From Escherichia coli (GTDB lineage: Bacteria; Pseudomonadota; Gammaproteobacteria; Enterobacterales; Enterobacteriaceae), in the NCBI RefSeq assembly GCF_965641715.1, contig NZ_OZ282453.1: DNA of 64,000 nucleotides; one strand, written 5' to 3'. Below, piece by piece: positions 12,093 to 42,626 of the stretch. The notes beneath the pieces were generated by a model, which saw only the letters and a list, made by a program, of their open reading frames with translations, was not told the origin of the DNA and made no database searches. The position numbers were made by a program, and so were the translations under genes. Numbering within the stretch: position 1 is the stretch's first letter; each line of letters starts with the position of its first letter.

Positions 12093-12102
12093 CAGGTGCT
12101 TT

Positions 12103-12390: not shown

Positions 12391-12401
12391 AGGGCGTTGC
12401 G

Positions 12402-13263: not shown

Positions 13264-13286
13264 GGTTACTGGACAAAGGGGGCGCA

Positions 13287-14371: not shown

Positions 14372-14602
14372 ATGGCAAACCGCAAACAGCACCGCGCTAT
14401 CGCGGAGCGTCGTCACATCCAGACTGAAATCAACCGCAGACTTTCCCGCGCATTCCGCGTCGCTAAAATCATGCACATCAATATGCTGCATGAGCGTAGC
14501 TGCGAACTTTCAAACCTCTACTCATCCGCTGTTTTCAGCTATCTGGCGGATGATCTGCGCGAGCTTCAACAGCTCATCCAGCAGCAAAACAAACTCCATT
14601 AA
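14372..14602 (+). CDS. Hypothetical early protein
   Basis: 76-aa basic ORF after a ~320-bp non-coding stretch. Confidence 0.45.
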   Translation: MANRKQHRAIAERRHIQTEINRRLSRAFRVAKIMHINMLHERSCELSNLYSSAVFSYLADDLRELQQLIQQQNKLH

Positions 14603-14674
14603 TTCCTGTTCCGGGCCTTTCCTGCACCTTGCGGCGGGAGGCCTTCGCACATCTGTAACAAGAGGATTGCCGCA

Positions 14675-15040
14675 ATGATTCTCGCCAACGACTTTCTTGA
14701 ATACCTGCTCAACACAGAGCGTGATCTTGCCGCTCGCGTACGTGATCGTTATGACATGTATCTGAAATCCCTGCCTGTACCGCAGCTCGCTGACGGAAAG
14801 ATTGTTATTGATGGTCGCTACATGATTGACAGCCACGAGGGAAATTACAGGCTTTACCGCATTGAAGGTGGCACCCCGTCCGTTATTGGCATTTACCAGC
14901 GCCCATCCTCTGCAATCGTCGATGTGATTGCCGACAGCATCCGCATCACACATCGCCATGCCGACACAGAAGACACCGTGCTGGAAATTCAGCGGCTGGC
15001 TGCCGTCTGCCGCGACACCCTGAATGGCATGACGAAGTAA
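14675..15040 (+). CDS. Hypothetical early protein
   Basis: 121-aa ORF immediately upstream of gene A. Confidence 0.5.
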   Translation: MILANDFLEYLLNTERDLAARVRDRYDMYLKSLPVPQLADGKIVIDGRYMIDSHEGNYRLYRIEGGTPSVIGIYQRPSSAIVDVIADSIRITHRHADTEDTVLEIQRLAAVCRDTLNGMTK

Positions 15041-15046
15041 ATCACT

Positions 15047-17869: not shown

Positions 17870-17945
17870 AGCGCGCACAAAACAGGCAAAAGCGGGATTT
17901 AAAAATCCTGTAAACGATTAATTAATCAACATAAGGAAAAGCGAC

Positions 17946-18905
17946 ATGAAAATTTGTATCGACGACGGCTCCACCAACATCAAGCTGGCATGGACTGAGA
18001 ACGGCGAACGCCGCAACGCCATCAGCCCGAACAGCTTCAAGTCGGAATGGTCTGCGCCGTTCGGTGGCTCGCAGCCCGCGAACTACATGCTTGATGGCGT
18101 GCGCTATGGTTTTGATCCGGTCAGCGATCGCTTTGTCCAGACGACCGACACGCAATACCAGTACAGCGATGTGAATGTCATTGCCATTCATCACGCGCTG
18201 GTCAAATCAGGCATCACGCCACAGGAGGTGGATGTGGTTGTCACCCTGCCATTGAGCGAGTATTTCGACACAAACGCACAGCCGGACATGGCCAACATCA
18301 GCCGCAAAAAAGCGAACGTTATGCGCCCGGTGGAGTACCAGAACGGCGAAACATTCACTATCCGTAACGTACGGGTTATGCCTGAATCCATTCCGGCTGG
18401 CTTTAAAGCACTGGCTGACATGAGTCCGCTTGAATCCCTGCTGATTGTGGATTTGGGCGGAACCACACTGGATGTGGCAAAGGTTCAGGGGCAACTGGCA
18501 GGTATCAGCCAGGTGTTTTGCGATCCACACGTAGGCGTTTCCCTGATGGCCGATGCCGTACTGTCGGTGATGGCCACTAACGGTATGCGTATCAGTCACC
18601 ACATCGCCAATACCATTATCGAACATCGCCATGATGAAGCCTGGTTGCGCCAGCACATCCACAATGACGCGCATTACGCCAGCCTGATGGCGGTTATTCG
18701 TGAAAAGGAAGAAACACTGAAACAACGCGTGATCCGCGCGCTGGCGGTTTTTTCGGGTTACGGGCGGGTGATGGTTGTCGGTGGCGGGGCGGAGATTGTG
18801 GCACCCGCTATCCGCGAAGCCTGCGGAGTTAATGCGACTTTCATCGCGGACGGGGTGCCACAGTTTGCTCTGGTTAATGGGCTGTACGCAATGGACAAGG
18901 AGTAA
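17946..18905 (+). CDS. ParM/StbA-like actin-type segregation ATPase
   Basis: N-terminus MKICIDDGSTNIKLAW... and later ...YSDVNVIAIHHAL... closely resemble plasmid R1 ParM (MLVFIDDGSTNIKLQW...YSDVNVVAVHHAL) as recalled. Confidence 0.85.
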   Translation: MKICIDDGSTNIKLAWTENGERRNAISPNSFKSEWSAPFGGSQPANYMLDGVRYGFDPVSDRFVQTTDTQYQYSDVNVIAIHHALVKSGITPQEVDVVVTLPLSEYFDTNAQPDMANISRKKANVMRPVEYQNGETFTIRNVRVMPESIPAGFKALADMSPLESLLIVDLGGTTLDVAKVQGQLAGISQVFCDPHVGVSLMADAVLSVMATNGMRISHHIANTIIEHRHDEAWLRQHIHNDAHYASLMAVIREKEETLKQRVIRALAVFSGYGRVMVVGGGAEIVAPAIREACGVNATFIADGVPQFALVNGLYAMDKE

Positions 18906-18909
18906 ACCA

Positions 18910-19221
18910 ATGACGACTCCAACCAGACGGATAAGTTTCTATCTGAAGCCCGCCGCCGTCAAGAACGAAGGTGAAGCATGCGCCTGGCTGGACAGCCTTA
19001 CACCAGAAGCGCGCAAAAGCGGCCAACGCGTGGCTTTTCTGGCCGGGCTGGCACTTCTGAAAATGAATCCGGCAGAGGCTTACCGACTGGCTGCATGGGC
19101 TGATGATGAAGCGTTATCAGTGACACAAACCAGGACAGAACGCCCCGCGTCACAGCCAGTATCAACCGCACAGATAACCAGTCAGATGGCCGGAAATATC
19201 CGGGCGTTATTTCCCGAATAA
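18910..19221 (+). CDS. ParR/StbB-like centromere-binding adaptor
   Basis: 103 aa from ATG 18910 (AAGGAG RBS); RRISFYLKP...LDSLTPEARKSGQRVAFLAGLAL and C-terminal NIRALFPE parallel R1 ParR; 4 nt after the ParM stop. Confidence 0.7.
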   Translation: MTTPTRRISFYLKPAAVKNEGEACAWLDSLTPEARKSGQRVAFLAGLALLKMNPAEAYRLAAWADDEALSVTQTRTERPASQPVSTAQITSQMAGNIRALFPE

Positions 19222-19284
19222 CACAACATCAGGGCGCATCCGCCCTGATGACTTTAACCCGGGAACATAAACAAGGGGGACACA

Positions 19285-19620
19285 ATGCAACGCATTGACA
19301 GAGAAAAAGCGCAGCGACTGATTGAGCGGATGGAAGCGCTGGCGAAAGAAGAAAATGTCAACATCCAAAAAATAGCTGAATGTGGCCAGATAGTTCTTCG
19401 TCGTGAAAAAGACCTCAAACAACTGATGTCTGGCGAAACCAGCAAAACATGGACTTCAGGTGAGGAGACGATTTATTGCAGCTTCTGCAATAAATCCCAG
19501 TACGAAGTCACAAAGGTGATTGCCGGACCGTCTGTTTACATCTGCAATGAGTGCGTTGATTTGTGCAATGAAGTTATCAGGAGAGAAGTGACAGACCATG
19601 AAGAAAAAACGCATGAATGA
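19285..19620 (+). CDS. Protein with C-terminal ClpX-type C4 zinc-binding domain
   Basis: C-terminal [39 protein letters not shown] is near-identical to the ClpX N-domain as recalled; N-terminal ~65 aa unrelated and helical. Confidence 0.75.
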
Positions 19621-19786
19621 CGAATTTGACGGCTTTTAATTTTATCGGGGCGCACTGTCGCCCTGCATGGAGAAAAACAATAAAAAAGATGAATAACTGC
19701 TCATGTCAGACGCGCTGCGGGCAAGTCTGGCACCCTGCCCTGTCTCCGCAAAGGCTGTTGTCTTAACACGACAGAGTATGCCAGCA

Positions 19787-20194
19787 TTAAATATAATCTT
19801 CTTCGTAGTCGCTGATTAATTCATTGCCATAATCAGACAGCAATTTCAAAGCAAAGGTAACTTCCTCAAGGGTAGCTATCCCCATTGCTGAAAACACCGT
19901 TAATTTAACCAGCAGCAGGGAGTTTGAAAGTTCGGAAGAGTTCATCATTAAAAATATTGATGCAGCCTGAAAAGCTGTGCGTTTATTCCCATCATGAAAG
20001 GCATGAGCCTTGGCTATACCAATCAAATACATAGCAGCCAGAGCATGAATATCATCAACCCCTTCATAGTAGTGTAGTGTCCTGACGCGATTTAAAGCAC
20101 CTTCAAGTAGCCCGTCATTGGCATTTCCGCTCTGGGGTAAAGTTTCAGCATGGATACGTTCTACTTGTTCTTTTGACAAAAACACTATGTCCAT
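19787..20194 (-). CDS. Doc-family (Fic-fold) toxin
   Basis: 135 aa with Fic/Doc active-site motif HAFHDGNKRTAF; downstream of and overlapping the antitoxin gene. Confidence 0.8.
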   Translation of the reverse strand: MDIVFLSKEQVERIHAETLPQSGNANDGLLEGALNRVRTLHYYEGVDDIHALAAMYLIGIAKAHAFHDGNKRTAFQAASIFLMMNSSELSNSLLLVKLTVFSAMGIATLEEVTFALKLLSDYGNELISDYEEDYI

Positions 20195-20550
20195 CAGTTA
20201 TCCTCAAGCTTTTTAATGATATCCGCATGTTTTTCTCTTGTACGCTTCATTGCATCTTCAAAAGACAATCCTTTTTTTCTCTGTGCGACAAGAGCTGGAT
20301 GACGTTTTTCCAGATCTCTCACTGCATTTATTAAGAGTGGTTGCTTCATTTTGTTTATTTGATCCCGCAGTTTTTTGGTTTTGCCAAGGACAGCCCGTAT
20401 TTCAGGACTAAGATCAGAACCAGCAAGAACAACATCCTTCCCTCCCTGCGCCGTGATAACGACACTGCCACCGGAAGAAAGGTAATCCAGAATTTCACTC
20501 AGGTTCTCACGAAATTCATCATCAGTTACAGTTTTCATATTCATTTCCAT
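20194..20550 (-). CDS. Phd/YefM-like antitoxin with C-terminal extension
   Basis: N-terminus ...MKTVTDDEFRENLSEILDYL...VVITAQGGKDVVLA fits the Phd/YefM pattern; stop overlaps the Doc start. Confidence 0.65.
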   Translation of the reverse strand: MEMNMKTVTDDEFRENLSEILDYLSSGGSVVITAQGGKDVVLAGSDLSPEIRAVLGKTKKLRDQINKMKQPLLINAVRDLEKRHPALVAQRKKGLSFEDAMKRTREKHADIIKKLEDN

Positions 20551-20624
20551 TATGCACGCCCATAACGTAAGTATAACGGCTTGTTGGGCAGTAATAACAC
20601 CGCCATATTTTCATTTTATACACC

Positions 20625-20650
20625 GCACAATAGTGCACAAATTTGCACAA
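20625..20650 (-). promoter_or_regulatory. Putative operator of the phd-doc promoter
   Basis: Three GCACAA hexamers at 10-bp phasing (20625, 20635, 20645) overlapping -10/-35-like elements upstream of the antitoxin gene. Confidence 0.4.
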
Positions 20651-21074
20651 TTTTTTTGAACAACTTTTTACCCTTCCGGCCCGCGTGGCGACTGGATCCG
20701 TCAAGGATCCGTGCGTGCACAAAAAAACGCGTTTTTTCTGCGCGCAGGTGACGGGGGAACAGCCCGCGTTTCAGGGGGTAAATAGCATTCCCTGAACGAT
20801 GTCGCAGCGACACAACAGAATGGCTGTATTTCTCACACTGAGCGTGAAAAAGGCGTGAGGGCTTTTGATTTGATGGGGTGACAGATAAGGCCGTCAAAAT
20901 CGCACTGAGGCGGCAAGAACATGCAGTCAACGCGGTGGGATTGCGTAAGAGCCTGACCGTCGATGATGGCGATAAGCTGGAAGACGTCGTGAAATTATCT
21001 GATTGATACAGGAGCTGGAGAGTCGGGGCATAAATTTTTTATGCCCCGGCGAAGCAGCAGACAAGCGAAGCGCG

Positions 21075-22121
21075 TCAGGATGTGGGCTGGGTGTCCAGCA
21101 GTGCGTAAGGGTTAAAGCGGATCACCTCTTCGCCAAGCCAGTCATTGATATGCTTCATGGCCTCCATGACGGGCATCAGCTCGTTAATTGCGTAAACCCG
21201 CGCTGCCTTCTCCACATCACCAAACGCACTTTTTTCGCCCGGCATCGCCCCCATCAGTTGCGGCGGAACGCGGTGCGCAGCCAGCACATCATCACGGGAT
21301 GCCGCCTTAACATTCATGAACTCATCCTTTGCGGTGATCTGCTGGAACGGCAAAATTTGCACACCTTCTTTGCCCCCGTTGGGCGCGTGAATGAGCACGT
21401 TTTTAAATGCACCACCACCACGCGCACCCTGTAGCGTTTCCTTCAGGGAGTCCATGCTTTCGCGGTTTACCTGCGCTGCACCGATGTAGATGATGCACCC
21501 GGCGTGGGATCCATTGTCGTAGTACAGTTTTCTGAACATGTCCGCCGAATGAGACAGGCTGGCCGAGAGTAATGCGCCAAGATATTCCGGCATGCCGTAA
21601 ATTTCCTGGTTAATGTCCGGATTCATCAGGTGGCACACTTTGCCAGGGCGAAACTGAAACGCGTCCTTGCCATCCTGCACATACCACCATGATTCAAGAT
21701 CGCTTCCGCGTCGCATGTATTTCGCCAGTGCGTGCCGTAATTTAAGTGGTTCGCCGAGCATATTGCTCCGAAGCTCAAGGAATGCGTTACCGAACACAAA
21801 CCAGTCCAGCGCCAGCGCCGAGAAATCCTGCCGGGAAAGCAGCGGGTGCGGGATGTAGCAACCGAGCAATACATTGCGCTTAAAGTAAAGCGCAGACTGA
21901 TGCCAGGACGTTTGCCGGGCGGCTCTTGCCAGACCGTACCAGTCCACCGGGGTTTCATACCACCGCCCGTTATCAGCACAGTACATATTGTCCAGCAGGT
22001 CATGCCCGGTCAGGCGGTAAGGACCATCAAATGTGAATGCACTGAGCGACGATTCTTTCCTGAGCGCATCAGCGAGATCAATGCGTGAACTCATGCGCAC
22101 TTTTTTATTTTTTCTGCTCAT
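21075..22121 (-). CDS. Portal protein (P2 gpQ-like)
   Basis: 348 aa, co-oriented and overlapping with the large terminase gene as in the P2 Q-P operon. Confidence 0.85.
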   Translation of the reverse strand: MSRKNKKVRMSSRIDLADALRKESSLSAFTFDGPYRLTGHDLLDNMYCADNGRWYETPVDWYGLARAARQTSWHQSALYFKRNVLLGCYIPHPLLSRQDFSALALDWFVFGNAFLELRSNMLGEPLKLRHALAKYMRRGSDLESWWYVQDGKDAFQFRPGKVCHLMNPDINQEIYGMPEYLGALLSASLSHSADMFRKLYYDNGSHAGCIIYIGAAQVNRESMDSLKETLQGARGGGAFKNVLIHAPNGGKEGVQILPFQQITAKDEFMNVKAASRDDVLAAHRVPPQLMGAMPGEKSAFGDVEKAARVYAINELMPVMEAMKHINDWLGEEVIRFNPYALLDTQPTS

Positions 22122-23872
22122 CAGAACTCCATAACCGTGAAACGCTCGTTTTCTCCTTCGCCGCCAATTGGTTCGTTAATGACAGCAAGCATGGTTGCCC
22201 ACGCAAGGTCGCCGTGGCTGATCCCCCTCGCGCGGTCCGTTTCGTAAGTGATAAAGCCGCCCGGTGTTTTCACCTTACGCACGGCGTTAAAGGCCGCGAC
22301 CAGCTCGCGTTCGGCGCGATCGTATTCCCACCGCCCGGCACGCATTATTTGCAGCATTTTCAGTACCAGCGACCGTTTTGATGACAGCGTGAAGGTGTAC
22401 GGAATAGCGGCAGGGAAAAACCGTTTCACTATCTGATAAACAGCCTCCCCGTTCCCGCCCGTCACATCAATGCCGATGTGTTCCACGTTGTAGCGACACG
22501 TGAACTCTTCAATGACTCTGGCCTGTTCTTCAAACTCCAGCCCCTGAACGCGTCGCGTCTCCACCGTTCGAAAACGGCCACCAGGAACAGCCGGAGGAAC
22601 CACCACGGACACCGCGCCACTGTCGCCGTTTCCACTGCTGCCGTTTGCGTCATACCCAATCCATACCGGACGATTCCCCATCGGGCGGGGAGCAAAAGGT
22701 TTCCAGTCTTTCCAGTCGTCGTATCCGTCAACACCGCAGCCAATCAGGATATTCAGGTTAAATGCCGATTCCCCTTCGCGGACAAACTCACACATATAGA
22801 GATTGCGGAACTCGTCTTCGGTGTTTTCATCACGAATTTCATCAATATCGGTGTGTTTCCAGCCGTGATTAACCACATCTTCCAGCGTGACAATTTGCCG
22901 CCACGTCCGGTCGGGGCAGATAAGCCCGTTATGCAGCGTTTTCCAGTCCACAGAAAAACGCTGGCGTTTATGCGCGGCCTTTTTCTCGTTCCAGCGGTCG
23001 CCGTTCCAGTAGACGTATGCCTCGTGCGTTTCGGTTGATGGCGTGGAGAAGTAGGTGCGTCGCAGCCCGCTGAGGGTTGCCATAGCGCCAGCCACCTTGC
23101 GCAGTTCAGCAAAGCGACTGACCCAGAAAAATTCATCAAAATAAAAATTGCCTGTGTAGGACTGTGCCGTCGCAGCAGAAGTGCCGAGAAAATGCAGCTC
23201 TGCGCCGTTGGAGAGGATGATTTTATCGCCCCCTTTCAGCTCCACATCAACTTCAGATGCAGCCTTCTGAATAATGCTTTTAAACTGGAACGCCTGACGA
23301 CGCGACGCAGACAAAAAAATCTGGTTACGCTGGTAAGGTTGCGCCACATCGTCACGCAGCGCCATCAGCAGTGCTTCCTGTGCAAAATACCAGGTCGCCC
23401 CAATCTGTCGGGATTTCAGGATCATCCTGTTACGTATCCCGGCTTCCCTGCAAAGGGTCAGGGAGTCAAACCAGCCCCGCTGATGCCACTCCAGCCTGCT
23501 GATGATTTTTTCCCGCAGTGCGGCAATCTGTTCCGGCGTGAAATGATTTTTAAGCTTTTTCGCCCGGCCTTTCTTTCCTGTGGCCGTCGCATCCGGCTGG
23601 CCATCATGCAGTTTTTTAAGCTGCCGGGTCAGCAGGTCTATTTCCTTAAAGTCACCGCCTGTTTTATTCTGTTTTTCAGTAAGCTGGATGAGGCGCGCAT
23701 CGATGGACTGCGTGACACGCTGCACGGGTGGCGTTTCATCCCACTGGTCGCGTTTTTTCCACGCATAAATCGTGTTCGGGTTTATTCCCATCAGACGTGA
23801 TATTTCAGCGGGCGGATAACCCTGCCAGTAAAGTTGTCGCGCACGCTGGCGCACAAAAGCGTCCTGAATCAT
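22121..23872 (-). CDS. Terminase large subunit (P2 gpP-like ATPase)
   Basis: 583 aa with N-terminal HTH and terminase ATPase/nuclease regions; divergent from the capsid operon. Confidence 0.9.
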   Translation of the reverse strand: MIQDAFVRQRARQLYWQGYPPAEISRLMGINPNTIYAWKKRDQWDETPPVQRVTQSIDARLIQLTEKQNKTGGDFKEIDLLTRQLKKLHDGQPDATATGKKGRAKKLKNHFTPEQIAALREKIISRLEWHQRGWFDSLTLCREAGIRNRMILKSRQIGATWYFAQEALLMALRDDVAQPYQRNQIFLSASRRQAFQFKSIIQKAASEVDVELKGGDKIILSNGAELHFLGTSAATAQSYTGNFYFDEFFWVSRFAELRKVAGAMATLSGLRRTYFSTPSTETHEAYVYWNGDRWNEKKAAHKRQRFSVDWKTLHNGLICPDRTWRQIVTLEDVVNHGWKHTDIDEIRDENTEDEFRNLYMCEFVREGESAFNLNILIGCGVDGYDDWKDWKPFAPRPMGNRPVWIGYDANGSSGNGDSGAVSVVVPPAVPGGRFRTVETRRVQGLEFEEQARVIEEFTCRYNVEHIGIDVTGGNGEAVYQIVKRFFPAAIPYTFTLSSKRSLVLKMLQIMRAGRWEYDRAERELVAAFNAVRKVKTPGGFITYETDRARGISHGDLAWATMLAVINEPIGGEGENERFTVMEF

Positions 23873-23993
23873 TGCTCCCCCTGAGTAATTACAGGAAGAT
23901 TACCCGCGCGCGAAACCGTTCTCCTTAACCCCCTGTTCTGGCCATTTTCTTACAACAAAAGCCCTTTGTATCAGCCTGTTACGCTTTGCCATC

Positions 23994-24863
23994 ATGACTG
24001 AAGAACCAGTCAGAGGGGCAAAAACTATGGCTAATGAAAAAAAGACATCACGCAAAAAGTTTCGCGTGGCTGTCTCCGGATCAACTGTTGATGGCCGCGA
24101 AATCAGTCCGGTGCATCTGCGTGAAGCTGCTGAGAACTTCGACCCGGATGTTTACGCTGCCCGCGTGAACGTTGAGCACTATCTCTCGCCATGCCCGTCA
24201 AGCGAATTTTCCGCAATGGGCGATGTCACCGCACTGAGTACGGAAGACATTACGGAAGGTCCGCTGGCCGGGCGTACTGCGCTGTATGCAGAAATCGAAC
24301 CGACCGAGCGCATGAAGAAGCTTGTCGCTGACGGCAAGAAAATTTATTCCAGTATCGAACTGCACCCGCAGTTCTCCGTTAACGGGCGCGCCTATCTGGT
24401 CGGGCTGGCGATGACCGACACCCCGGCAAGCCTGGGCACTGAACGTCTGAAATTCACGGCACAGCAACGTCAGGCAGTGATGAAATTCAACAGTGTCCAG
24501 GGTGAGGCTCCGCTTATCTCCGAAGCCATCGAGTCTGAAATCATCGAAATGGCAGAACAACGCCAGGAAGAAGGCACCCAGTGGTTTAACCGCGTAATGG
24601 GAATTATTGGCCGTGGCCGCAAAGCGGATGACGCCAGTTTTTCCCGTATTCAGGAAGCGGTGGAAGGCGTCGCAACGTCACAGGCCGACATTATCGACCG
24701 TTTTAATGCACTGGAAGCCCGCCATAAGCAGGACCGTCAGAAAATCACGTCACTGACCACAGAGCTGACAGCACTGAAGGAAAAACTGCGCACGCAGGAC
24801 GGCGATCCGCAGAACCGGTTCACCGCAACGGGCGCAGCCTCCGACCAACTGGCTGACTTCTGA
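23994..24863 (+). CDS. Capsid scaffolding protein (gpO-like)
   Basis: 289 aa, first gene of the head operon directly before the major capsid gene; coiled-coil-rich C-terminus. Confidence 0.8.
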   Translation: MTEEPVRGAKTMANEKKTSRKKFRVAVSGSTVDGREISPVHLREAAENFDPDVYAARVNVEHYLSPCPSSEFSAMGDVTALSTEDITEGPLAGRTALYAEIEPTERMKKLVADGKKIYSSIELHPQFSVNGRAYLVGLAMTDTPASLGTERLKFTAQQRQAVMKFNSVQGEAPLISEAIESEIIEMAEQRQEEGTQWFNRVMGIIGRGRKADDASFSRIQEAVEGVATSQADIIDRFNALEARHKQDRQKITSLTTELTALKEKLRTQDGDPQNRFTATGAASDQLADF

Positions 24864-24886
24864 TAAGACAAAGGAGCAAAATTTTT

Positions 24887-25939
24887 ATGAATCTGGTGAT
24901 GTCAGATAATGCCCGTAACAAGCTGGGCTGCTACATGACGCAGCAGGCGTCGCTTAACAATATCCCGGTTTCTGCGCTGGTATCGCGATTTACCGTCAAT
25001 CCATCGGTACAACAGCGTTTTGAAAACGCTTCAAAGGAAAGTACCGAATTTACGAAAAGAATTAACGTAATCGGTGTAACTGACCAGAAAGGCGAAAAAG
25101 TTCTCCTGGACACCACCGGGCCGATTGCGCGCACGAATACCAGTTATGACGGCACAGATCGCCGTAATCCGATTAACGCTGTCGATATGAAGGCTCGTCA
25201 GTACCAGTGTGAACAGGTGAACTACGACACCTTTATTTCGTATCCGAAGCTTGATGCCTGGGCGGCTCACAGCGATTTTCAGTCGCGCATCAGCACACAG
25301 ATTGCCCGGCAGGTGGCGCTTGACCGCATCATGATCGGCTTTAACGGCACATCACACGCGGAAAAATCCAATTTCAGCACCAACAAGCTGCTTCAGGACG
25401 TTAACGTGGGCTGGCTGGAGCACATCAGAACCGATGCCAGTGAACGCGTAATGAATGACGTGACGCTGACTTCCCGCAACATGGACAACACCGTGGCGCA
25501 CGCGGGTAAGTATGCGAACGCTGATGCACTCGTACAGGACGCGCGCTCATCCCTGCTGGATGAATGGCACAAGGAAGCAGACGACCTCGTGGTGATTATG
25601 GGGCGCAACCTGTTTAACTCGCTGCGTCTGCCCGTTCTGAACAGCATCAGCGGCCAGAATCCCAATGCGGAATTACTCGCCGGACAGCTCATCCTGTCAT
25701 CGCGCACCATTGGCGGGCTGGATGTATTCCTTGCGCCGTTCTTCCCGGATGCAACGATGCTGATTACCTCATTCAACAACCTGTCAATTTACTGGCAGAG
25801 AGGCTCAATGCGTCGCCTGATGAAAGACGAGCCGGAATACAACCGCATCGCCACTTACCAGTCCATCAATGACGCTTATGTCGTTGAAGACTATGGCAAG
25901 TGCGCGATGGTCACTGGCCTGAAGTTCGCCGACAGCTAA
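24887..25939 (+). CDS. Major capsid protein (gpN-like)
   Basis: 350-aa ORF in the conserved position between scaffold and small terminase genes. Confidence 0.85.
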   Translation: MNLVMSDNARNKLGCYMTQQASLNNIPVSALVSRFTVNPSVQQRFENASKESTEFTKRINVIGVTDQKGEKVLLDTTGPIARTNTSYDGTDRRNPINAVDMKARQYQCEQVNYDTFISYPKLDAWAAHSDFQSRISTQIARQVALDRIMIGFNGTSHAEKSNFSTNKLLQDVNVGWLEHIRTDASERVMNDVTLTSRNMDNTVAHAGKYANADALVQDARSSLLDEWHKEADDLVVIMGRNLFNSLRLPVLNSISGQNPNAELLAGQLILSSRTIGGLDVFLAPFFPDATMLITSFNNLSIYWQRGSMRRLMKDEPEYNRIATYQSINDAYVVEDYGKCAMVTGLKFADS

Positions 25940-25984
25940 TCAACTCACGGCGGGCATCATGCCCGCCTGTAACGGAGAGAAAGA

Positions 25985-26785
25985 ATGATTACCCCTGCAC
26001 AGCAACACTGGCAGAACGTGATGGCGCAGCGCGCAGGCCGGGCGAATGAAGGCGTGGATCACGCCGCACGTACCGCGCATGAAGAGGTGCTGTATCGTCT
26101 GCGTCTGGCACAGGCCCGACTTAAGGGCGTACAGGCCAGAAGCGCCAAAGCCGCCATCAAAAAAGAGTTGTTACCGGACTTTTCTGGCTGGATTGAAGGA
26201 ACGCTGGAGGCTGACGGCGGGCAGCAGGATGAGGTGATTGCCACGCTGATGGTGTGGGCGATTGACTGTGGCGATCTTCCGCTGGCATTGCGTATTGGTG
26301 CGTATGTGGTCCGTCACAACCTCATCATGCCGGATAACTTTGGCCGTACTGCTGCCACAGTGCTGACCGAAGAAATCTGCAACCCGGTACTGACGCAGGC
26401 CGGGACGGATGCCGACGCGGATTTGTCCGCCTTTATCGAACCACTGGACACCCTCCGGGAGATTGTCACCGACCAGGATATGCCGGACGAAGTACGCGCC
26501 AAATTATGCAAGGCGTGCGCCTTTGCCCGCCGTGGCCTGAGCGATGCGGACAGCATGGCCCTGTCACTGAAGCTGCTGCGCGAAGCGATGCACCTGAACC
26601 CGAACGCAGGTGTGAAACGCGAGATTGCAACCCTTTCCCGCGCCCTGAAAAAAGCCGATTCCGCAGCCGCCCCAGATGACGCCAGCGCACAGCAGGCGCA
26701 GGACGAAAGCAGCAAAAGTAAAAAGACAACGCGGAAGCCTGCAACACGAAAAACCACCGCGACGCAGAAGGCGAAGCGCGTTTAA
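25985..26785 (+). CDS. Terminase small subunit / endonuclease (gpM-like)
   Basis: 266 aa with basic Lys/Arg-rich C-terminal tail; P2 M position. Confidence 0.75.
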   Translation: MITPAQQHWQNVMAQRAGRANEGVDHAARTAHEEVLYRLRLAQARLKGVQARSAKAAIKKELLPDFSGWIEGTLEADGGQQDEVIATLMVWAIDCGDLPLALRIGAYVVRHNLIMPDNFGRTAATVLTEEICNPVLTQAGTDADADLSAFIEPLDTLREIVTDQDMPDEVRAKLCKACAFARRGLSDADSMALSLKLLREAMHLNPNAGVKREIATLSRALKKADSAAAPDDASAQQAQDESSKSKKTTRKPATRKTTATQKAKRV

Positions 26786-26877
26786 CGACTGACCCCGTCA
26801 GCGGGCGGCGTGCACGGTGTTCCGGTTTGACTCCGTGACCGTTTACACCGCGCACCCACCGCCCGATTTTTTCAGGA

Positions 26878-27381
26878 GTGAACCCCATGAGTATGGTTGC
26901 CAGAACCAACCCCGGCCCCGCAGAGGACGACATCACCGATACCGATGATGGTGATACCCGTATTTCAGCGGGCGCATTCTGGCCGGATATTGTGCTGCGT
27001 GAGCTGCGTCTGGCGATACGACTGCCGGGCCGTGTGACCACCTCCCGCCTGCTGCATACCGCCACCGGGGCCGTGGCACACGTTACCCGCGAGCTGGAAG
27101 CGTGGCAGCAGGAACAGCAGGCGGCTGGCCACCAGACGCTGGCCGATGTTCCGGCACCCGTAATTAACGGAGAAAGCGTCAATCTCTGGCACTGGCGCAA
27201 TGCCGTTTATACCGCCACACGCGCCCTGATTCTGGAGCGTTACCGCGATGCGGACACAACGGATAAGGGCGACCGCCGGGCGGACGCACTGGATATACAG
27301 ACATCGGATTTGTGGCGCGATGTGAGCTGGGCCATCTCTGACATTCTGGGACGACCGCGAATCTTTGCGGAGTTGTGCTGA
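26878..27381 (+). CDS. Head completion/stabilisation protein (gpL-like)
   Basis: 167 aa, P2 L position. Confidence 0.75.
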   Translation: MNPMSMVARTNPGPAEDDITDTDDGDTRISAGAFWPDIVLRELRLAIRLPGRVTTSRLLHTATGAVAHVTRELEAWQQEQQAAGHQTLADVPAPVINGESVNLWHWRNAVYTATRALILERYRDADTTDKGDRRADALDIQTSDLWRDVSWAISDILGRPRIFAELC

Positions 27382-27581
27382 TGAAAGTGAAGGCACTGGA
27401 AGGCGACACCGTGGATTCGCTCTGTTTCCGGTACTACGGCACGACGCAGGGCGTCACCGAAAAGGTGCTGGATGCCAACCCCGGACTCTGTCAGCAGGTA
27501 TTTCTGGACCCCGGGCAGGACGTGGAGATGCCGGAGCCGGAGAAGAAGAAACGAGAAATGATTCAGTTGTGGGGGGAGTAG
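27375..27581 (+). CDS. Tail protein X (gpX-like)
   Basis: 68 aa, overlapping the gpL stop, in the P2 X position. Confidence 0.7.
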   Translation: MLMKVKALEGDTVDSLCFRYYGTTQGVTEKVLDANPGLCQQVFLDPGQDVEMPEPEKKKREMIQLWGE

Positions 27582-27583
27582 TA

Positions 27584-27907
27584 GTGAGCACTATTCAAAC
27601 AGGGATCACAGAGCAGGTTATTGCGTGGCTCTTTGACCACCTGCCAACGGTGTATGCAGCAGGCGCGGCAGTCAGCATTTCCGCGCTGATGAGTCTTTAT
27701 GACGGACGAACGCTGGTTCAGACCGTAACGGGATCGCTGGCGTGCGGCGTTCTTGCCATGGCCGTGGCCGGGTCGTTGCGCTTCTTCGGAGTTCCTGAAG
27801 ATGCCGTGACGTTTTTCGGCGCATCTATCGGTTTTATGGGCGCAGAAAAAGCACGCGACAAGATCATTGCCGCCTTTAACCGCATAACCCAAAAGGGAGA
27901 TGAATAA
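27584..27907 (+). CDS. Putative holin
   Basis: About 107 aa from GTG 27584 (G-rich RBS) with 2-3 predicted transmembrane helices; directly upstream of the endolysin gene. Confidence 0.5.
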   Translation: MSTIQTGITEQVIAWLFDHLPTVYAAGAAVSISALMSLYDGRTLVQTVTGSLACGVLAMAVAGSLRFFGVPEDAVTFFGASIGFMGAEKARDKIIAAFNRITQKGDE

Positions 27908-27961
27908 GTCGCAGGCTTAAAGCCGGTAATCACCATAAAAATCATTCACAGAGGTGACGAA

Positions 27962-28507
27962 ATGAAATCGAAAGACGAAATTTTTGATGTCGTTCTTGGC
28001 AAAGAAGGCGGCTACGTCAATCACCCGGATGACAGAGGCGGTCCGACAAAATGGGGCATCACTGAAAAGGTGGCACGGGCGCACGGATACCGTGGCGATA
28101 TGCGTGATTTAACTCGCGGACAGGCACTGGAAATCCTTGAAGCTGATTACTGGTACGGACCGCGTTTTGATCAGATAGCGAAGCTGTCCCCGGATATTGC
28201 CGCAGAACTGTGTGACACCGGAGTAAATATGGGGCCGTCTGTGGCAACCAGAATGCTTCAGCGCTGGCTGAACGTATTCAATCAGGGCGGGAAACTGTAT
28301 CCCGATATGGACACGGACGGACGCACTGGCCCACGCACGATTAACGCATTGCGTGCATATCTGGAAAAACGCGGTCGGGACGGCGAGATGGTGATGTTGT
28401 CTGCAATGAACTGTACGCAGGGCGAACGCTATCTGGAGCTGGCAGAGAAACGCGAGGCTAACGAGTCGTTTGTCTATGGCTGGATGAAAGAACGTGTAGC
28501 CCTGTAA
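27962..28507 (+). CDS. Endolysin (GH108-type lysozyme with peptidoglycan-binding domain)
   Basis: N-terminal EIFDVVLGKEGGYVNHPDDRGGPTKWGIT is typical of glycoside hydrolase family 108 lysozymes. Confidence 0.8.
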   Translation: MKSKDEIFDVVLGKEGGYVNHPDDRGGPTKWGITEKVARAHGYRGDMRDLTRGQALEILEADYWYGPRFDQIAKLSPDIAAELCDTGVNMGPSVATRMLQRWLNVFNQGGKLYPDMDTDGRTGPRTINALRAYLEKRGRDGEMVMLSAMNCTQGERYLELAEKREANESFVYGWMKERVAL

Positions 28508-28547
28508 CCTCATGAACTGCAACAAGTGAATAACGAGGACAACAACC

Positions 28548-29015
28548 ATGCTGAAAACTGATTCCCTGCGTGAAGCCATGACCCGTTCATGCCGATGGTG
28601 TCAGGCCAACCCGGAAAAATTCACCATTTTCGTGGAGAGCGGCAACATTGAAACGACCGGAGAAACGCCCTCGTTTGTTTACCGCTATCAGATGGTGATG
28701 TTTGTCATGGATTACGCCGGAGAGCTGGACGACCTCACGCTGCCGCTGCTGGCGTGGTTATCCGAAAATCAGCCACAGTTGTTGCTTAATCCGGAGTGTA
28801 ATCAGGACATCAAATTTTCCGCCGTTATCAATGACGATGACAGCGCCGATCTCCTGTTTACGCTCCCCCTGCGGGAACGCGTTCGCATCACGCGCAACAG
28901 TCAGGGGACACCGCAGGCAGAACACCTGCCGGAGCCAAAACCCCGCCTGCCCTCCTCCGAAGGCGACTGGTCGCATGTATTCCAGGATGTGACGTGGGGT
29001 GAAAGCGATGGATAA
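28548..29015 (+). CDS. Tail completion protein (gpR-like)
   Basis: 155 aa; position and size match P2 R. Confidence 0.6.
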   Translation: MLKTDSLREAMTRSCRWCQANPEKFTIFVESGNIETTGETPSFVYRYQMVMFVMDYAGELDDLTLPLLAWLSENQPQLLLNPECNQDIKFSAVINDDDSADLLFTLPLRERVRITRNSQGTPQAEHLPEPKPRLPSSEGDWSHVFQDVTWGESDG

Positions 29016-29643
29016 GGCATTCACCCGCGTGGATGAAACCTTTGAGGCCATCCGCGACAGCCTGAATCAGCAGGCCATCAATAACATCGCCAGAAAGCTG
29101 GCACAGGATTTACGCCGCGCCCAGCAGGCGCGCATCCGGTCACAGAAAGCGCCGGACGGGACCGCATGGACACCACGCAGACGCCGCGTAACCCGGATAC
29201 AGGAGCGCATTCGCTTTATCTGGAATAACGAAGCACGCACGCTGAAAAACTGGCATCACGACACGGGGAAATACGGGCGAACCATCACCGGGTGGGATGA
29301 GGATAAAAACAGCATCCGCACGTTTTACCGGGATGACATCGACCGCTTTCTGGAAATACGCACCCGGCGCATCAACCAGGACAGCACCAGGCGCGTCCCC
29401 ATGTTCGTAAAACTGCGCACCGCCCGCTACCTGAAAGCCCGTGCAGATGCTTCCGGTGTGACGGTGGGTTACAGCGGCGTGGCCGCACGTATTGCACGCG
29501 TTCATCAGTTCGGTGAGCGCGATCAGGTTGCGCCGGGCATTTTCACCGATTACCCGGTACGTGAGCTGCTGGGTATCAGCCAGGCAGATGAGCGCCTGAT
29601 TTATAACACGGTGCTGGGCCGGATTGCGGAGGCTGTACGGTGA
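28999..29643 (+). CDS. Tail completion / virion morphogenesis protein (gpS-like)
   Basis: Overlaps the R stop; basic protein in the P2 S position. Confidence 0.6.
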   Translation: MKAMDKAFTRVDETFEAIRDSLNQQAINNIARKLAQDLRRAQQARIRSQKAPDGTAWTPRRRRVTRIQERIRFIWNNEARTLKNWHHDTGKYGRTITGWDEDKNSIRTFYRDDIDRFLEIRTRRINQDSTRRVPMFVKLRTARYLKARADASGVTVGYSGVAARIARVHQFGERDQVAPGIFTDYPVRELLGISQADERLIYNTVLGRIAEAVR

Positions 29644-30221
29644 GCGCAGAACTCATGCGGCTACTGAGCAATATCATCCGCACCGGGATCATCTCTGAAG
29701 TTGATGAGAAGTCCTGGCGCGTGCGCGTTCGCAGCGGCGAACTGGAAACAGGCTGGTTGCGCTGGAACACCACGCGCGCGGGAGCCTTCAATGTGTGGCT
29801 GCCGCCATCACCAGGCGAACAGGTGGTCATTGCCTGCATTGGCGGCAACCCGGAAACCGCCATGATAATTGGCAGCCTGTGGAGTGATGCCATTCCGGCC
29901 CCAGGCAAAAGCCTGAAAGAAATCGTGGTCAGCGCGCCGGATGGCGCGGTGTTCCGCTACGACGCAGACGCAGGCGCACTGAGCGCCAGCGGCATGAAAA
30001 CGGCCACCCTGCAGGCATCCGTCAGTGTGACACTGGACACGCCTGTCGTGGAATGCACAGACCTTCTGAGAACAGCGACGCTTGACGTCACAAAAGGGGG
30101 AAAGATGAGCGGCAATATCACGCACAGCGGCGGCGATTTCACCTCAAACGGCATCACAGTGCATACGCATAAACACGGTGGCGTTAAAGGTGGCAGCGAT
30201 TCGACAGGAGGCCCGCAGTGA
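29640..30221 (+). CDS. Baseplate assembly protein V (spike)
   Basis: 193 aa; P2 V position, overlapping its neighbours. Confidence 0.8.
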   Translation: MSAELMRLLSNIIRTGIISEVDEKSWRVRVRSGELETGWLRWNTTRAGAFNVWLPPSPGEQVVIACIGGNPETAMIIGSLWSDAIPAPGKSLKEIVVSAPDGAVFRYDADAGALSASGMKTATLQASVSVTLDTPVVECTDLLRTATLDVTKGGKMSGNITHSGGDFTSNGITVHTHKHGGVKGGSDSTGGPQ

Positions 30222-30568
30222 CAACCCGCTACACAGGAATGAACCCGGACGGGACGGGAAACCTGAACGATATGGAGCACCTGAAACAGTCAGTCAGGGA
30301 CATCCTGATCACCCCGCTGGCAAGCCGGGTTATGCGACGGGAATATGGCAGCCTTGTGCCTGATTTAATTGACGAACCCATGAATAACACCACGCGTCTG
30401 CAATGCATGAGTGCTGCCGTGATTGCACTGACGCGATGGGAACCCCGCATTGCCCTGGATGCCATCGACGTTGTCTGGAAAGCAGGAGGCCGCGCCGGGG
30501 TGACGCTGTCGGGTACTGTCATGCAGACCATGCAGAATGTTGAATTAACCATCACGCTGAGGGAGTAA
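30218..30568 (+). CDS. Baseplate protein W (gp25-like)
   Basis: 116 aa; P2 W position. Confidence 0.8.
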   Translation: MTTRYTGMNPDGTGNLNDMEHLKQSVRDILITPLASRVMRREYGSLVPDLIDEPMNNTTRLQCMSAAVIALTRWEPRIALDAIDVVWKAGGRAGVTLSGTVMQTMQNVELTITLRE

Positions 30569-30571
30569 ATC

Positions 30572-40904: not shown

Positions 40905-41417
40905 TCAGCCAAGCCCAAGCGCGGAACGGATACGGTCAGGCACAATGTCCTTGCCGTCCTTCCGGTAGATGAAGTTCAGCAGGTCAATCTCCCACAACGG
41001 GCGATCGTTAACACTCAGCTTGTAGTAGGTGTTTTTAATGGCGTAAGTGTGTGATGTGGCTTCGCCCTGTTTGGCTTCCCCCATATCAATTTCCGTCACA
41101 CGTCCGCGCATTTCGACTTCATACAGGTCGCTTTCTGCATCGGTGTAGTATTCACCCGCAAAACGCAGCAGCGTGCCGTCAATCGTGCCGCCATACTTAA
41201 GGAACAGCTCACGAACTGCGCCCCCCATGACAAAGCTCGCATCAAGCGCGGAGTCGTCCAGACCGAGATCAATACTTACCGCACCCATCATGCCGCCACC
41301 CCGGTAGCTGTCGGTTTTGCGCGTCAGCTTAGGCAGAGTGACGGACGTCACCTTACCCACTTCGTTTTCACCATCCACAAACAGCGTAAAAAAGCGAAGA
41401 TGTTTTGGCACAGCCAT
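40905..41417 (-). CDS. Tail tube protein (FII)
   Basis: 170 aa directly downstream of the sheath gene. Confidence 0.85.
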   Translation of the reverse strand: MAVPKHLRFFTLFVDGENEVGKVTSVTLPKLTRKTDSYRGGGMMGAVSIDLGLDDSALDASFVMGGAVRELFLKYGGTIDGTLLRFAGEYYTDAESDLYEVEMRGRVTEIDMGEAKQGEATSHTYAIKNTYYKLSVNDRPLWEIDLLNFIYRKDGKDIVPDRIRSALGLG

Positions 41418-42601
41418 CAGGCACCTCCCAGCACCGCAAATGCGGGTTCAAAGTATTCATCAGTAAACGTCTGGTAAAGCTCCATGTCTTCCAGTGGCGG
41501 AACGGGCGTATATTTGTAGCGAATACGCACGCGCCCCTGACGTAAATCCGTGGTGCTGTTATCCACCACGTCATACCAGCACTCCGCGCCAATCAGTTTC
41601 CCGGCAGTAACCAGTGAATCCAGTTTTGCCCTGATGGCACTGATAACATCCTTCACGTTCGCAGGCGTCAGTGGACTGTCGATGGTTTCAAACTGCGCTT
41701 CCGCAATTGAATCAGCCAGCACCTGTGCGGTTCGGGTATACACCTCAAAGATGTAGGCGTTCGTTTCCGGTGTGCGGTTGCCCCAGAAGCGGAACCCGTT
41801 GCGACGAATAATGGTCGTGATTTCTTTGTTGTTGAGGCTGTTGGCATCGCTGTCTTCGGCCTGCAACGACCAGAACACATGCTTCGACATCCCCAGCACA
41901 TTTTTAACCGGAACGTTGGACAGTGATTTGTGCCACCCCTGCTCATGGTCAATGTACGCACGAAGGCCGCACGCATAGGCAGGTGCGGGGAACGTTTCGT
42001 TTTTGCCACTTTTCGGGTTGTAGGCGATGAAGTCCGGCCATAAGAGCATCACCTCACGTTCGTTGAATTTCTGGCGGTAGGTAATCGCCTCAGCCATCGT
42101 GTTACAGCCGTGACATGAGGCATACACAAACGCGCGCAGTTTACCCGCAATCACGCACAGGGATTTTGTTACAGCCTCCGTGTCCAGCTCCGGCGCGGCC
42201 AGAATACGCGGACGGTATCCGATGCTTTCATCCTGCTCTGCAACAAGCAGCGCATACATCCCCGTATAGCTGCCGTCAGATTCAGAACCACCGATAACCA
42301 GTTGATCCTGCGTCTTTCCGTCTTCTTCTTTGTGTTCAGCCACGCGAACGACGATCACCTTTGTGCTCACCTGGTCTGCGATGGCCTTAAGCGCACGATA
42401 AAGCGTCCCCGTTGTCCCGCATTTTCCCAGCACGTCATTGACGCGGGTCAGCAGTGTGGGCTTGTTCAGCGGGAACAGCTTCGCGTCCGCATCATCCGCC
42501 GTTGCCACGATACCGATAACGCTGGAATCAACATCGTTAATCGCTGTTACCAGGTCGGTATTTTCCGTAACACGGGCACCATGAAAACGAGTTTCACTCA
42601 T
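41417..42601 (-). CDS. Tail sheath protein (FI)
   Basis: 394 aa; motifs such as LRAFVYASCHGC, GWHKSLSNV, IRRNGFRFWGNRT and YTPVPPLE match P2 FI as recalled. Confidence 0.9.
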   Translation of the reverse strand: MSETRFHGARVTENTDLVTAINDVDSSVIGIVATADDADAKLFPLNKPTLLTRVNDVLGKCGTTGTLYRALKAIADQVSTKVIVVRVAEHKEEDGKTQDQLVIGGSESDGSYTGMYALLVAEQDESIGYRPRILAAPELDTEAVTKSLCVIAGKLRAFVYASCHGCNTMAEAITYRQKFNEREVMLLWPDFIAYNPKSGKNETFPAPAYACGLRAYIDHEQGWHKSLSNVPVKNVLGMSKHVFWSLQAEDSDANSLNNKEITTIIRRNGFRFWGNRTPETNAYIFEVYTRTAQVLADSIAEAQFETIDSPLTPANVKDVISAIRAKLDSLVTAGKLIGAECWYDVVDNSTTDLRQGRVRIRYKYTPVPPLEDMELYQTFTDEYFEPAFAVLGGA

Positions 42602-42626
42602 AGCTTCAGCCCCTTGTATCCGTTAA

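What the first reader, a model, noticed from the sequence alone, without database searches (positions are those of the whole stretch)
27584..28547. Lysis cassette lacks recognisable spanin genes after the endolysin
A holin candidate and a GH108-type endolysin are followed after only about 40 bp by the tail completion gene. There is no ORF with an N-terminal transmembrane anchor (i-spanin) or embedded lipoprotein (o-spanin) where P2 has lysA/lysB/lysC.
Basis: seen in the sequence. Interest (0 to 1): 0.35.

Follow-up and report, generated by a model that had tools for sequence, protein, structure and literature searches.

The report
Prophage lysis cassette missing spanin genes
An otherwise complete P88-like (P2-family) prophage of E. 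coli has lost, through a 501-bp deletion, the two genes that normally break the outer membrane at the end of infection, and this spanin-less version turns up in hundreds of public E. coli assemblies.

Summary
The order is holin (27584-27907, PF05106), GH108/PG_binding_3 endolysin (27962-28507), a 40-bp gap, then tail-completion gene gpR (28548-29015). No spanin was found here or elsewhere in the prophage (about 9839-45822) by homology, lipobox or N-terminal TMD scans.

The cause is a deletion. Close relatives (Citrobacter phage Shae_phiSM at 97.5%, E. coli 94-3024, phage P88) carry two genes between endolysin and gpR. One is a 135-aa i-spanin (DUF2570, PHROG "Rz-like spanin"). The other is an overlapping 96-aa o-spanin (lipobox LLTGC, Pfam LysC, the family of P2 LysC). 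The window lacks exactly 501 bp and keeps only the last 14 o-spanin codons (28517-28561), which carry gpR's ribosome-binding site.

Every other P88 replication, packaging, head and tail gene is full length, and a 20-bp att-like repeat flanks the element. The identical junction occurs at three chromosomal sites. It was present in all 23 contigs read that carry this exact endolysin allele (325 contigs on record).

Predicted phenotype (inferred, not tested): holin and endolysin act, but release is conditional, as in lambda Rz/Rz1 nulls. This is a natural variant of a known prophage type, of modest interest.

The parts
9839..45822 (.). Whole P88-like (Xuanwuvirus, Peduoviridae) prophage next to pheA, bounded by a 20-bp direct repeat (ACAAAAAACGCGCCCGAAGG at 9839-9858 and 45803-45822) that is the candidate att core
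   Evidence: Host flanks are pheA-tyrA-aroF-yfiL on one side and bamD-rluD on the other. The direct repeat was found. The element is collinear with P88, with full-length replication, packaging, head and tail proteins at 92-100% aa identity.
27375..27581 (+). Tail protein X (gpX), the last gene before the lysis cassette
   Evidence: PF05489, E 7e-20; 97% aa identity to P88 gp29.
27584..27907 (+). Holin (lambda-S-type family), GTG start, 107 aa
   Evidence: PF05106, E 5e-19; phrog_126 holin/anti-holin, E 3e-33; 92% aa identity to P88 gp30.
27962..28507 (+). Soluble GH108 muramidase-type endolysin with a PG_binding_3 domain, 181 aa. Its last ~125 nt are mosaic relative to the spanin-bearing relatives.
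   Evidence: PF05838 plus PF09374; phrog_315 endolysin. Identity to Shae_phiSM is 97-100% for the first ~420 nt, then 88, 92 and 78% in the last three 42-nt windows, partly matching a lambdoid GH108 allele. It did not appear in the N-terminal TMD scan.
28508..28547 (+). Deletion scar: a 40-nt spacer where relatives have 541 nt encoding the i-spanin and most of the o-spanin. The junction lies somewhere in 28508-28519.
   Evidence: Pairwise and multiple alignments with Shae_phiSM, 94-3024 and P88. The same junction is present in RM10740, four ETEC strains and 10 further loci.
28517..28561 (+). Remnant of the o-spanin (LysC/Rz1-like) gene: its last 14 codons plus stop (LQQVNNEDNNHAEN*), with no start codon or signal peptide. 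It contains the gpR Shine-Dalgarno (GAGGA) and overlaps the gpR start.
   Evidence: Translation and alignment to the Shae_phiSM o-spanin, residues 83-96.
28548..29015 (+). Tail completion protein gpR
   Evidence: PF06891, E 1e-39; 98.7% aa identity to P88 gp33.
28999..29643 (+). Virion morphogenesis protein gpS (annotated relatives start at the ATG equivalent to 29008)
   Evidence: PF05069; 99% aa identity to P88 gp34.

Best explanation
This is a P88-like temperate myovirus prophage of E. coli. Its two-component spanin genes were removed by one 501-bp deletion or recombination event between the endolysin stop codon and the last 45 nt of the o-spanin gene. The lost genes are a DUF2570-type i-spanin and an overlapping LysC/Rz1-type o-spanin. 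What remains is a canonical holin plus a soluble GH108 endolysin. They are transcribed in the same late operon that continues into the tail genes R and S, whose ribosome-binding site was preserved in the o-spanin remnant. Shown: the gene content, the deletion, its single shared junction, and its wide distribution. Inferred from lambda and P2 genetics: on induction the holin permeabilises the inner membrane and the endolysin degrades the murein. With no spanin to fuse the inner and outer membranes, the cells should round up into fragile spheres bounded by the outer membrane. Virion release would then depend on shear, low divalent-cation conditions, detergents such as bile, or lysis functions of co-induced prophages. 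The allele is therefore a conditional lysis or release defect, not a new lysis mechanism.
For: Relatives carry both spanin genes in exactly this gap. These are Shae_phiSM (97.5% nt identity over 99% of the query), E. coli 94-3024, P88 and MSI001, the last at the same pheA-side chromosomal site. The i-spanin is a 135-aa ORF matching phrog_214 'Rz-like spanin' (E 1e-39). The o-spanin is a 96-aa overlapped ORF with lipobox LLTGC that matches PF23793 LysC (E 8e-13, as does P2 LysC) and phrog_3001/456. The window is shorter by exactly 501 nt and retains o-spanin codons 83-96. No spanin homologue, lipoprotein ORF or N-terminal-TMD ORF of spanin type exists elsewhere in the prophage. The rest of the prophage is complete relative to the inducible, plaque-forming phage P88 (PMC5285337) and has att-like repeats. 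The junction is not an artefact. It is identical, apart from one SNP, in RM10740, four Belgian pig ETEC strains and 10 sampled NCBI assemblies. It was present in 23 of 23 contigs read that carry this exact endolysin protein, while 24 of 24 contigs with the commonest sister allele have DUF2570. Phenotype basis: lambda spanin nulls give spherical cells, and lysis is rescued by shaking unless Mg2+ is added (PMC6139136). The P2 record calls lysB and lysC nonessential.
Against: No phenotype was or could be measured. The parent allele of the diverged endolysin 3' end was not found. Searches covered complete E. coli genomes, IMG/VR, JGI metagenomes and GTDB representative genomes. The event may therefore have been a recombination with an unknown GH108-bearing element rather than a simple deletion. 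Motif scans cannot exclude an outer-membrane-disrupting protein of unknown type. No isolated phage record has the deletion arrangement, and an exact search for the junction in IMG/VR found nothing. It is therefore unproven that the variant still produces infectious particles.
Confidence: 0.85

Rival explanations
1. The prophage lineage is no longer an active phage. It is a decaying or domesticated element inherited vertically and shuffled by homologous recombination, and spanin loss is simply an early, tolerated step of decay.
For: In two of the three known chromosomal contexts the prophage also carries IS insertions. RM10740 has an IS66 family element in the tail-fibre region. ETEC1730 has IS100 in the early region and IS66 near gene D. 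One of the two copies in GCA_019297365.1 has no called gpR. No isolated phage record has the deletion arrangement, and an exact search for the junction in IMG/VR found nothing.
Against: The window copy has every P88 replication, packaging, head and tail gene full length and both att-like repeats. The allele sits at three different attachment sites, and the integrase beside it differs between RM10740 and ETEC1730. Its flanks differ by up to 3%, and it occurs twice in one genome. That spread is easier to explain if particles are still made.
Confidence: 0.3
2. Outer-membrane disruption is supplied in trans by spanins of co-resident prophages that are induced by the same SOS signal. The deletion would then be phenotypically silent in polylysogens.
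For: Inference only. E. coli genomes commonly hold several prophages with Rz/Rz1-type genes (general knowledge). LysC-type genes matched in 1139 of 5426 complete genomes with this query alone. P88-type phages are induced by mitomycin C (PMC5285337).
Against: Nothing in the 64-kb window encodes a spanin. Co-induction and cross-function were not tested, and spanin pairs are usually co-adapted.
Confidence: 0.2
3. A non-canonical outer-membrane disruptor replaces the spanins. Candidates are a phiKT gp28-like cationic peptide, a membrane-active endolysin tail, or a spanin of unusual topology.
For: About 13-15% of phages of Gram-negative hosts have no identifiable spanin. At least one, phiKT, uses a cationic peptide instead (PMC6139136; bioRxiv 10.1101/515445, abstract).
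Against: The gaps flanking the endolysin are 54 and 40 nt with no ORF. The endolysin protein differs from that of the spanin-bearing Shae_phiSM at only seven of 181 residues. No gene is present in the window's late region that P88 lacks. The unassigned early-region ORFs match regulators, Doc/Phd and a methyltransferase.
Confidence: 0.05
4. Assembly or sequencing artefact that collapsed about 500 bp.
For: None.
Against: The identical junction occurs in independently sequenced complete genomes from the USA and Belgium and in at least 8 further assemblies.
Confidence: 0.01

Closest known systems
Escherichia phage P88 / genus Xuanwuvirus (Peduoviridae), including Citrobacter phage Shae_phiSM
   Same: Gene order is collinear from the early genes to gene D. 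Replication, packaging, head and tail proteins are 92-100% identical (int, C and cox are a different module). The holin family is the same, and the invertible tail-fibre segment and ParM partition genes are shared. Shae_phiSM also has the same GH108 endolysin, 97.9% nt identity up to its last codons.
   Different: P88 and Shae_phiSM have the DUF2570 i-spanin and the overlapped LysC-type o-spanin between endolysin and gpR; the window does not. P88 uses an M15 peptidase endolysin instead of GH108. The window's integrase, repressor and cox module also differs, with 50% and 42% aa identity for integrase and repressor and no hit for cox.
P2 lysis region (Y, K, lysA, lysB, lysC)
   Same: The position of the cassette between X and R is the same. 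The o-spanin overlaps the start of R in both. The relatives' o-spanin belongs to the same Pfam family (PF23793) as P2 LysC. The P2 record marks lysB and lysC as nonessential genes that affect lysis timing.
   Different: The holin and endolysin families are different. No lysA equivalent exists in any P88-like relative. In the window lysB and lysC equivalents are physically absent rather than mutated.
Lambda Rz/Rz1 null mutants
   Same: The predicted functional state is the same: holin and endolysin intact, no spanin. The expected result is spherical cells and release that depends on shear and divalent cations (PMC6139136).
   Different: Those are laboratory alleles. This is a natural allele found in hundreds of assemblies. 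The relatives' architecture is overlapped rather than embedded.
Spanin-less phages (91 of 677 in Kongari et al. 2018; phiKT with gp28)
   Same: No identifiable i-, o- or u-spanin in the genome.
   Different: Here the loss is demonstrably recent, because sister genomes at 94-98% nt identity retain the genes, and no replacement gene is visible. phiKT encodes a dedicated cationic peptide (10.1101/515445, abstract).
Lambdoid GH108 lysis cassettes of E. coli (Rac-SA53 LT-IIa prophage; prophages in ARS-C301 and JCKP02)
   Same: They have a related GH108/PG_binding_3 endolysin (about 79% nt identity overall for Rac-SA53). For ARS-C301 and JCKP02 a run of ~50 nt near the 3' end is identical to the window. 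No spanin ORF follows the endolysin in the stretch fetched.
   Different: They have a different phage backbone and different holins. The endolysin is followed by toxin genes, or by a hairpin and bor, not by tail genes.

Membership tests
Two-component spanin (i-spanin + o-spanin) | i-spanin: an ORF of ~90-200 aa with an N-terminal TMD and a periplasmic coiled-coil domain, in or near the lysis cassette | tested here: not met
   The N-terminal TMD scan of all ORFs in 9.9-44.9 kb found only a 37-aa early membrane peptide (12641-12754), hok (44363-44503) and antisense ORFs. tblastn with DUF2570 i-spanin, P2 LysB and lambda Rz gave no hit below E 0.1.
Two-component spanin (i-spanin + o-spanin) | o-spanin: a small ORF with a lipoprotein signal peptide and lipobox Cys, embedded in, overlapping or adjacent to the i-spanin gene | tested here: not met
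   Strict and relaxed lipobox scans of all frames and all starts gave nothing credible in the prophage. The strict scan recovers 5 of 6 control o-spanins. Only codons 83-96 of the relatives' o-spanin remain.
Unimolecular spanin (T1 gp11 type) | A single ORF with an N-terminal lipobox and a C-terminal TMD | tested here: not met
   No lipobox candidate in the prophage is a plausible secreted lipoprotein. T1 gp11 itself was not used as a homology query.
P88-like prophage (Xuanwuvirus, Peduoviridae) | Collinear P2-type gene order with high protein identity to P88 across replication, packaging, head and tail modules | tested here: met
   Forty-six of 53 P88 proteins hit at full or nearly full length. 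The replication, packaging, head and tail proteins are 92-100% identical. Apart from cox and four accessory ORFs, only the M15 endolysin and the i-spanin lack a hit.
Canonical holin-endolysin lysis (lambda S/R type) | A holin of a multi-TMD family, plus a cytoplasmic endolysin without a signal or SAR sequence | tested here: met
   The holin matches PF05106 and phrog_126. It also matches TIGR01594 at 51 bits, below that model's 55-bit cut-off. The endolysin N-terminus MKSKDEIFDVVLGKEGGY is hydrophilic and was not flagged in the TMD scan.
Spanin-independent lysis via a cationic peptide (phiKT gp28-like) | A small cationic amphipathic peptide gene in the lysis cassette | tested here: not met
   The holin-endolysin gap is 54 nt and the endolysin-gpR gap is 40 nt. 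The only ORF in the scar is MNCNK*. No homology search with gp28 was run.
Functional, inducible phage | Produces infectious particles on induction | not testable with these tools
   The gene set and att repeats are intact, but this is not a test of function.

The most novel reading that the evidence does not exclude
The spanin-less allele marks a temperate phage lineage that is still transmissible and has spread among E. coli, seemingly often pig-associated, to at least three attachment sites and hundreds of assemblies. If so, spanins are dispensable for phage spread in the gut, for example because bile or shear finishes lysis. Alternatively, the phage routinely relies on the spanins of co-resident prophages. 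Either way it would be a natural experiment on whether the third step of Gram-negative lysis is needed outside the flask.
Probability: 0.3. Interest if true: 0.5.

Novelty: new variant of a known kind. Interest (0 to 1): 0.3.

Why it matters
Spanins are regarded as the required third component of phage lysis in Gram-negative hosts, yet their necessity outside laboratory conditions is largely untested. This is a clean, naturally occurring spanin knockout in an otherwise intact and well-characterised phage type. Isogenic-like spanin-bearing sisters are available, including one at the same chromosomal site. The allele is frequent enough (325 contigs against 745 and 224 for the two commonest spanin-linked endolysin alleles) to suggest it is not strongly counter-selected. 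That makes the question directly testable in E. coli. For annotation, it shows that the missing spanin is real and not a gene-calling failure of the overlapped-ORF kind.

Tried and rejected
1. Spanin elsewhere in the window. This was rejected by tblastn with seven lysis proteins, by lipobox scans, by the TMD scan and by PHROG searches of the unassigned ORFs.

2. Antisense ORF 26314-26757. It is 147 aa with LLLLSSC and lies opposite gpM. It was rejected as a lipoprotein because it is antisense to a conserved gene, equally present in spanin-bearing relatives, and has no partner i-spanin.

3. Spanin genes nested between holin and endolysin, as in Shewanella LambdaSo. Rejected because that gap is only 54 nt.

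4. A lost attenuator or terminator. The consensus scans show no predicted terminator or promoter difference between the window and Shae_phiSM in this region.

5. Search for the parent of the diverged endolysin 3' end and junction. The exact-pattern scans of IMG/VR, JGI metagenome contigs and GTDB representative genomes all returned nothing. A distant blastn search against complete E. coli genomes found only the five deletion carriers at 99% identity or more.

6. The low diversity around the junction among carriers is partly produced by the sampling. The sample was chosen by identical endolysin protein, and the spanin-bearing sample shows the same dip. I therefore rely only on the shared junction and the diverged flanks.

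7. The first MAFFT alignment misplaced the window across the large gap. It was replaced by an affine-gap pairwise alignment and direct inspection.

Full report
**What is in the sequence.** The stretch 27375-29643 on the + strand reads as follows.
- gpX: 27375-27581, PF05489.
- Holin: 27584-27907, GTG start, 107 aa, PF05106 and phrog_126.
- A 54-nt spacer.
- Endolysin: 27962-28507, 181 aa, with Glyco_hydro_108 and PG_binding_3 domains.
- A 40-nt spacer.
- gpR tail completion protein: 28548-29015, PF06891.
- gpS: 28999-29643, PF05069.

There is physically no room for a gene between the endolysin and gpR.

**The surrounding element.** The window is E. coli chromosome. A prophage of about 36 kb lies between pheA and bamD. 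It is bounded by a 20-bp direct repeat at 9839-9858 and 45803-45822. It is collinear with Escherichia phage P88 (genus Xuanwuvirus, Peduoviridae). P88 is inducible with mitomycin C and forms plaques (PMC5285337).
- Replication protein A, ParM, portal, both terminase subunits, scaffold, capsid, L, X, holin, R, S, V, W, J, I, H, G, the invertible H'/G' segment with its invertase, U, T, E/E', FII, FI and D are all full length at 92-100% aa identity.
- The integrase, repressor and cox module is different.
- In the late region only two annotated P88 proteins have no counterpart: the M15 endolysin, which is replaced by GH108, and the DUF2570 protein.

**What is missing and how.**
- The closest phage record is Citrobacter phage Shae_phiSM, at 97.5% nt identity over 99% of the query. 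It has the same holin and the same GH108 endolysin. After the endolysin it has a 135-aa DUF2570 ORF whose ATG overlaps the endolysin stop (ATGA), and gpR follows 137 nt after that ORF ends.
- Translating all frames shows that the apparent intergenic 137 nt is the 3' part of an overlapped 96-aa ORF. It begins MNAPTLCLTLVLLTGCAGTQ, with a classic lipobox, and ends 14 nt inside gpR.
- The DUF2570 protein matches phrog_214 'Rz-like spanin' (E 1e-39). The lipoprotein matches phrog_3001/456 and Pfam PF23793 LysC, the family that also contains P2 LysC.
- PGAP annotates the pair as 'DUF2570 domain-containing protein' and 'Rz1-like lysis system protein LysC' in E. coli relatives. One example is strain MSI001, where a P88-like prophage sits at the same pheA-side site.
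- Relative to all of these, the window is shorter by exactly 501 nt: 541 nt between endolysin stop and gpR start in the relatives against 40 nt here.
- The window keeps only o-spanin codons 83-96 plus the stop (LQQVNNEDNNHAEN*, 28517-28561). This remnant includes the gpR Shine-Dalgarno sequence.

**Is a spanin hidden elsewhere?**
- tblastn with the Shae_phiSM i- and o-spanins, P2 LysA/LysB/LysC and lambda Rz/Rz1 found nothing in the 64 kb except the remnant.
- A lipobox scan over every start codon in six frames found host lipoproteins outside the prophage. Inside it, the scan found only antisense or out-of-frame ORFs without credible signal peptides.
- The same scan recovered the o-spanins of Shae_phiSM, P88, 94-3024, lambda and Yersinia phage YpM_41. 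It missed P2 LysC with the strict box, which is why a relaxed scan was also run.
- An N-terminal TMD scan found only a 37-aa early membrane peptide, which P88 shares, and hok.
- The unassigned ORFs match regulators, Doc/Phd and a DNA methyltransferase.

**Not an artefact, and not rare.**
- Among 5426 complete E. coli genomes, 37 have the GH108-gpR arrangement. Five show the deletion in one contiguous match: RM10740 from a Californian feral pig and four Belgian pig ETEC strains. The other 32 show the same query split across an extra ~500 bp annotated as DUF2570 plus LysC.
- The junction sequence is identical in the window and RM10740 and differs by one SNP in the ETEC strains.
- The three contexts are different attachment sites: pheA/bamD here, pdxB/flk in RM10740, and btuC/ihfA in the ETEC strains. 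The integrases annotated in RM10740 and ETEC1730 are different proteins.
- The exact endolysin protein of the window is on record on 325 contigs (658 index blocks). All 23 contigs read had gpR 40 nt after it. One genome (GCA_019297365.1) carries two such prophages that differ at 146 of 6546 positions.
- The commonest sister allele (745 contigs) was followed by DUF2570 in 24 of 24 contigs read.
- Flanks of the deletion carriers differ by up to 3%. The allele has therefore either persisted for some time or been recombined into diverse P88-like backgrounds.
- The low diversity right at the endolysin is partly a consequence of selecting by identical protein, so I do not read more into it.

**Origin of the junction.**
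- The endolysin gene is 97-100% identical to Shae_phiSM for about 420 nt. Identity then drops to 88, 92 and 78% in the last three 42-nt windows. A ~50-nt run there is identical to a GH108 allele of lambdoid prophages in strains ARS-C301 and JCKP02.
- The few bases after the stop codon (CCTCATGAACT) align loosely with the start of the relatives' i-spanin (GGTTATGGACT). One reading is therefore a deletion between ...ATGAACT and GCAAC..., with a 2-nt microhomology.
- The true parent was not found in complete E. coli genomes, IMG/VR, JGI metagenome contigs or GTDB representative genomes.
- A recombination with an unknown GH108-bearing element is equally possible. Either way the outcome is the same: both spanin genes are gone.

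**How it most likely works.**
- Shown: the cassette encodes a lambda-S-family holin and a soluble muramidase-type endolysin with no signal sequence, and nothing for the outer membrane. The operon continues uninterrupted into R and S. No predicted promoter or terminator is gained or lost.
- Inferred from established lysis genetics: the holin triggers and the endolysin degrades the murein. Without i-/o-spanin fusion of the two membranes, the cell becomes a fragile sphere bounded by the outer membrane.
- In lambda this is an absolute lysis block unless shear forces act. It is masked in shaken cultures unless millimolar Mg2+ is added (PMC6139136).
- In the P2 record, lysB and lysC are noted as nonessential genes that affect lysis timing.
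- The allele is thus a conditional release defect. Its frequency suggests the cost is small in nature, or is offset by co-resident prophages. It may instead be irrelevant because many copies are no longer active: two of the three contexts carry IS insertions.

**Comparison with what is known.** About 13% of phages of Gram-negative hosts (91 of 677) have no identifiable spanin (PMC6139136). At least one of them uses a cationic peptide instead (10.1101/515445, abstract). The present case differs in that the loss is demonstrably secondary and recent within a spanin-bearing genus, and no substitute gene is visible. No paper in the searchable library mentions it. I classify it as a new variant of a known kind, with modest interest.

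Noticed in passing
L008 (Rac-SA53) 1504-3279; L010 (ARS-C301) 2056-3325; L011 (JCKP02) 2060-3329: Lambdoid E. coli prophages with a related GH108 endolysin also show no spanin ORF after the endolysin in the stretch fetched. In Rac-SA53 the LT-IIa toxin genes follow it. In ARS-C301 and JCKP02 a hairpin with a T-run, a frameshifted ~94-aa ORF and bor follow it. GH108 cassettes in E. coli may often be spanin-less.
   Followed up: partly
window 28380-28507: The last ~125 nt of the endolysin gene are mosaic. They are much more diverged from the spanin-bearing P88-like relatives than the first 420 nt, and a ~50-nt run is identical to a lambdoid GH108 allele. This suggests a recombination breakpoint inside the gene. 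The donor was not found.
   Followed up: partly
L019 and L020 (GCA_019297365.1, contig NBJA01000001.1 at 2.81 Mb and 1.88 Mb): One E. coli genome carries two P88-like prophages that both have the spanin deletion but differ at 146 of 6546 aligned positions. One copy has no called gpR, which may be a frameshift or a long-read error.
   Followed up: partly
window 34848-36990: There is an invertible tail-fibre segment. Alternative tail-fibre C-terminus and assembly genes lie on the minus strand (35384-36175, 34848-35381), next to a DNA invertase (36385-36990, 99.5% aa identity to the P88 invertase).
   Followed up: no
window 17946-19221 and 19787-20550: The prophage carries ParM and partition genes, as P88 does, and a Doc/Phd toxin-antitoxin pair on the minus strand between the partition genes and the portal gene. 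In one search, 69 of the matching places in E. coli genomes were on plasmids, so some P88-like elements may live as phage-plasmids.
   Followed up: no
window 44363-44503 and 44895-45701: A Hok/Gef-family toxin ORF and a DNA methyltransferase lie inside the right end of the prophage, before the att-like repeat at 45803-45822.
   Followed up: no
window 26314-26757 (minus strand): This 147-aa antisense ORF inside gpM has a lipobox-like LLLLSSC motif. It is conserved in P88, Shae_phiSM and 94-3024, and I judge it a by-product of the sense-strand coding sequence.
   Followed up: yes
L002 / L022 (P88 RefSeq record) 2753-3052 of L002: The o-spanin ORF is not annotated in the P88 RefSeq record or in Shae_phiSM, although it is intact there. 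Kongari et al. 2018 describe this omission as typical for overlapped o-spanins.
   Followed up: yes
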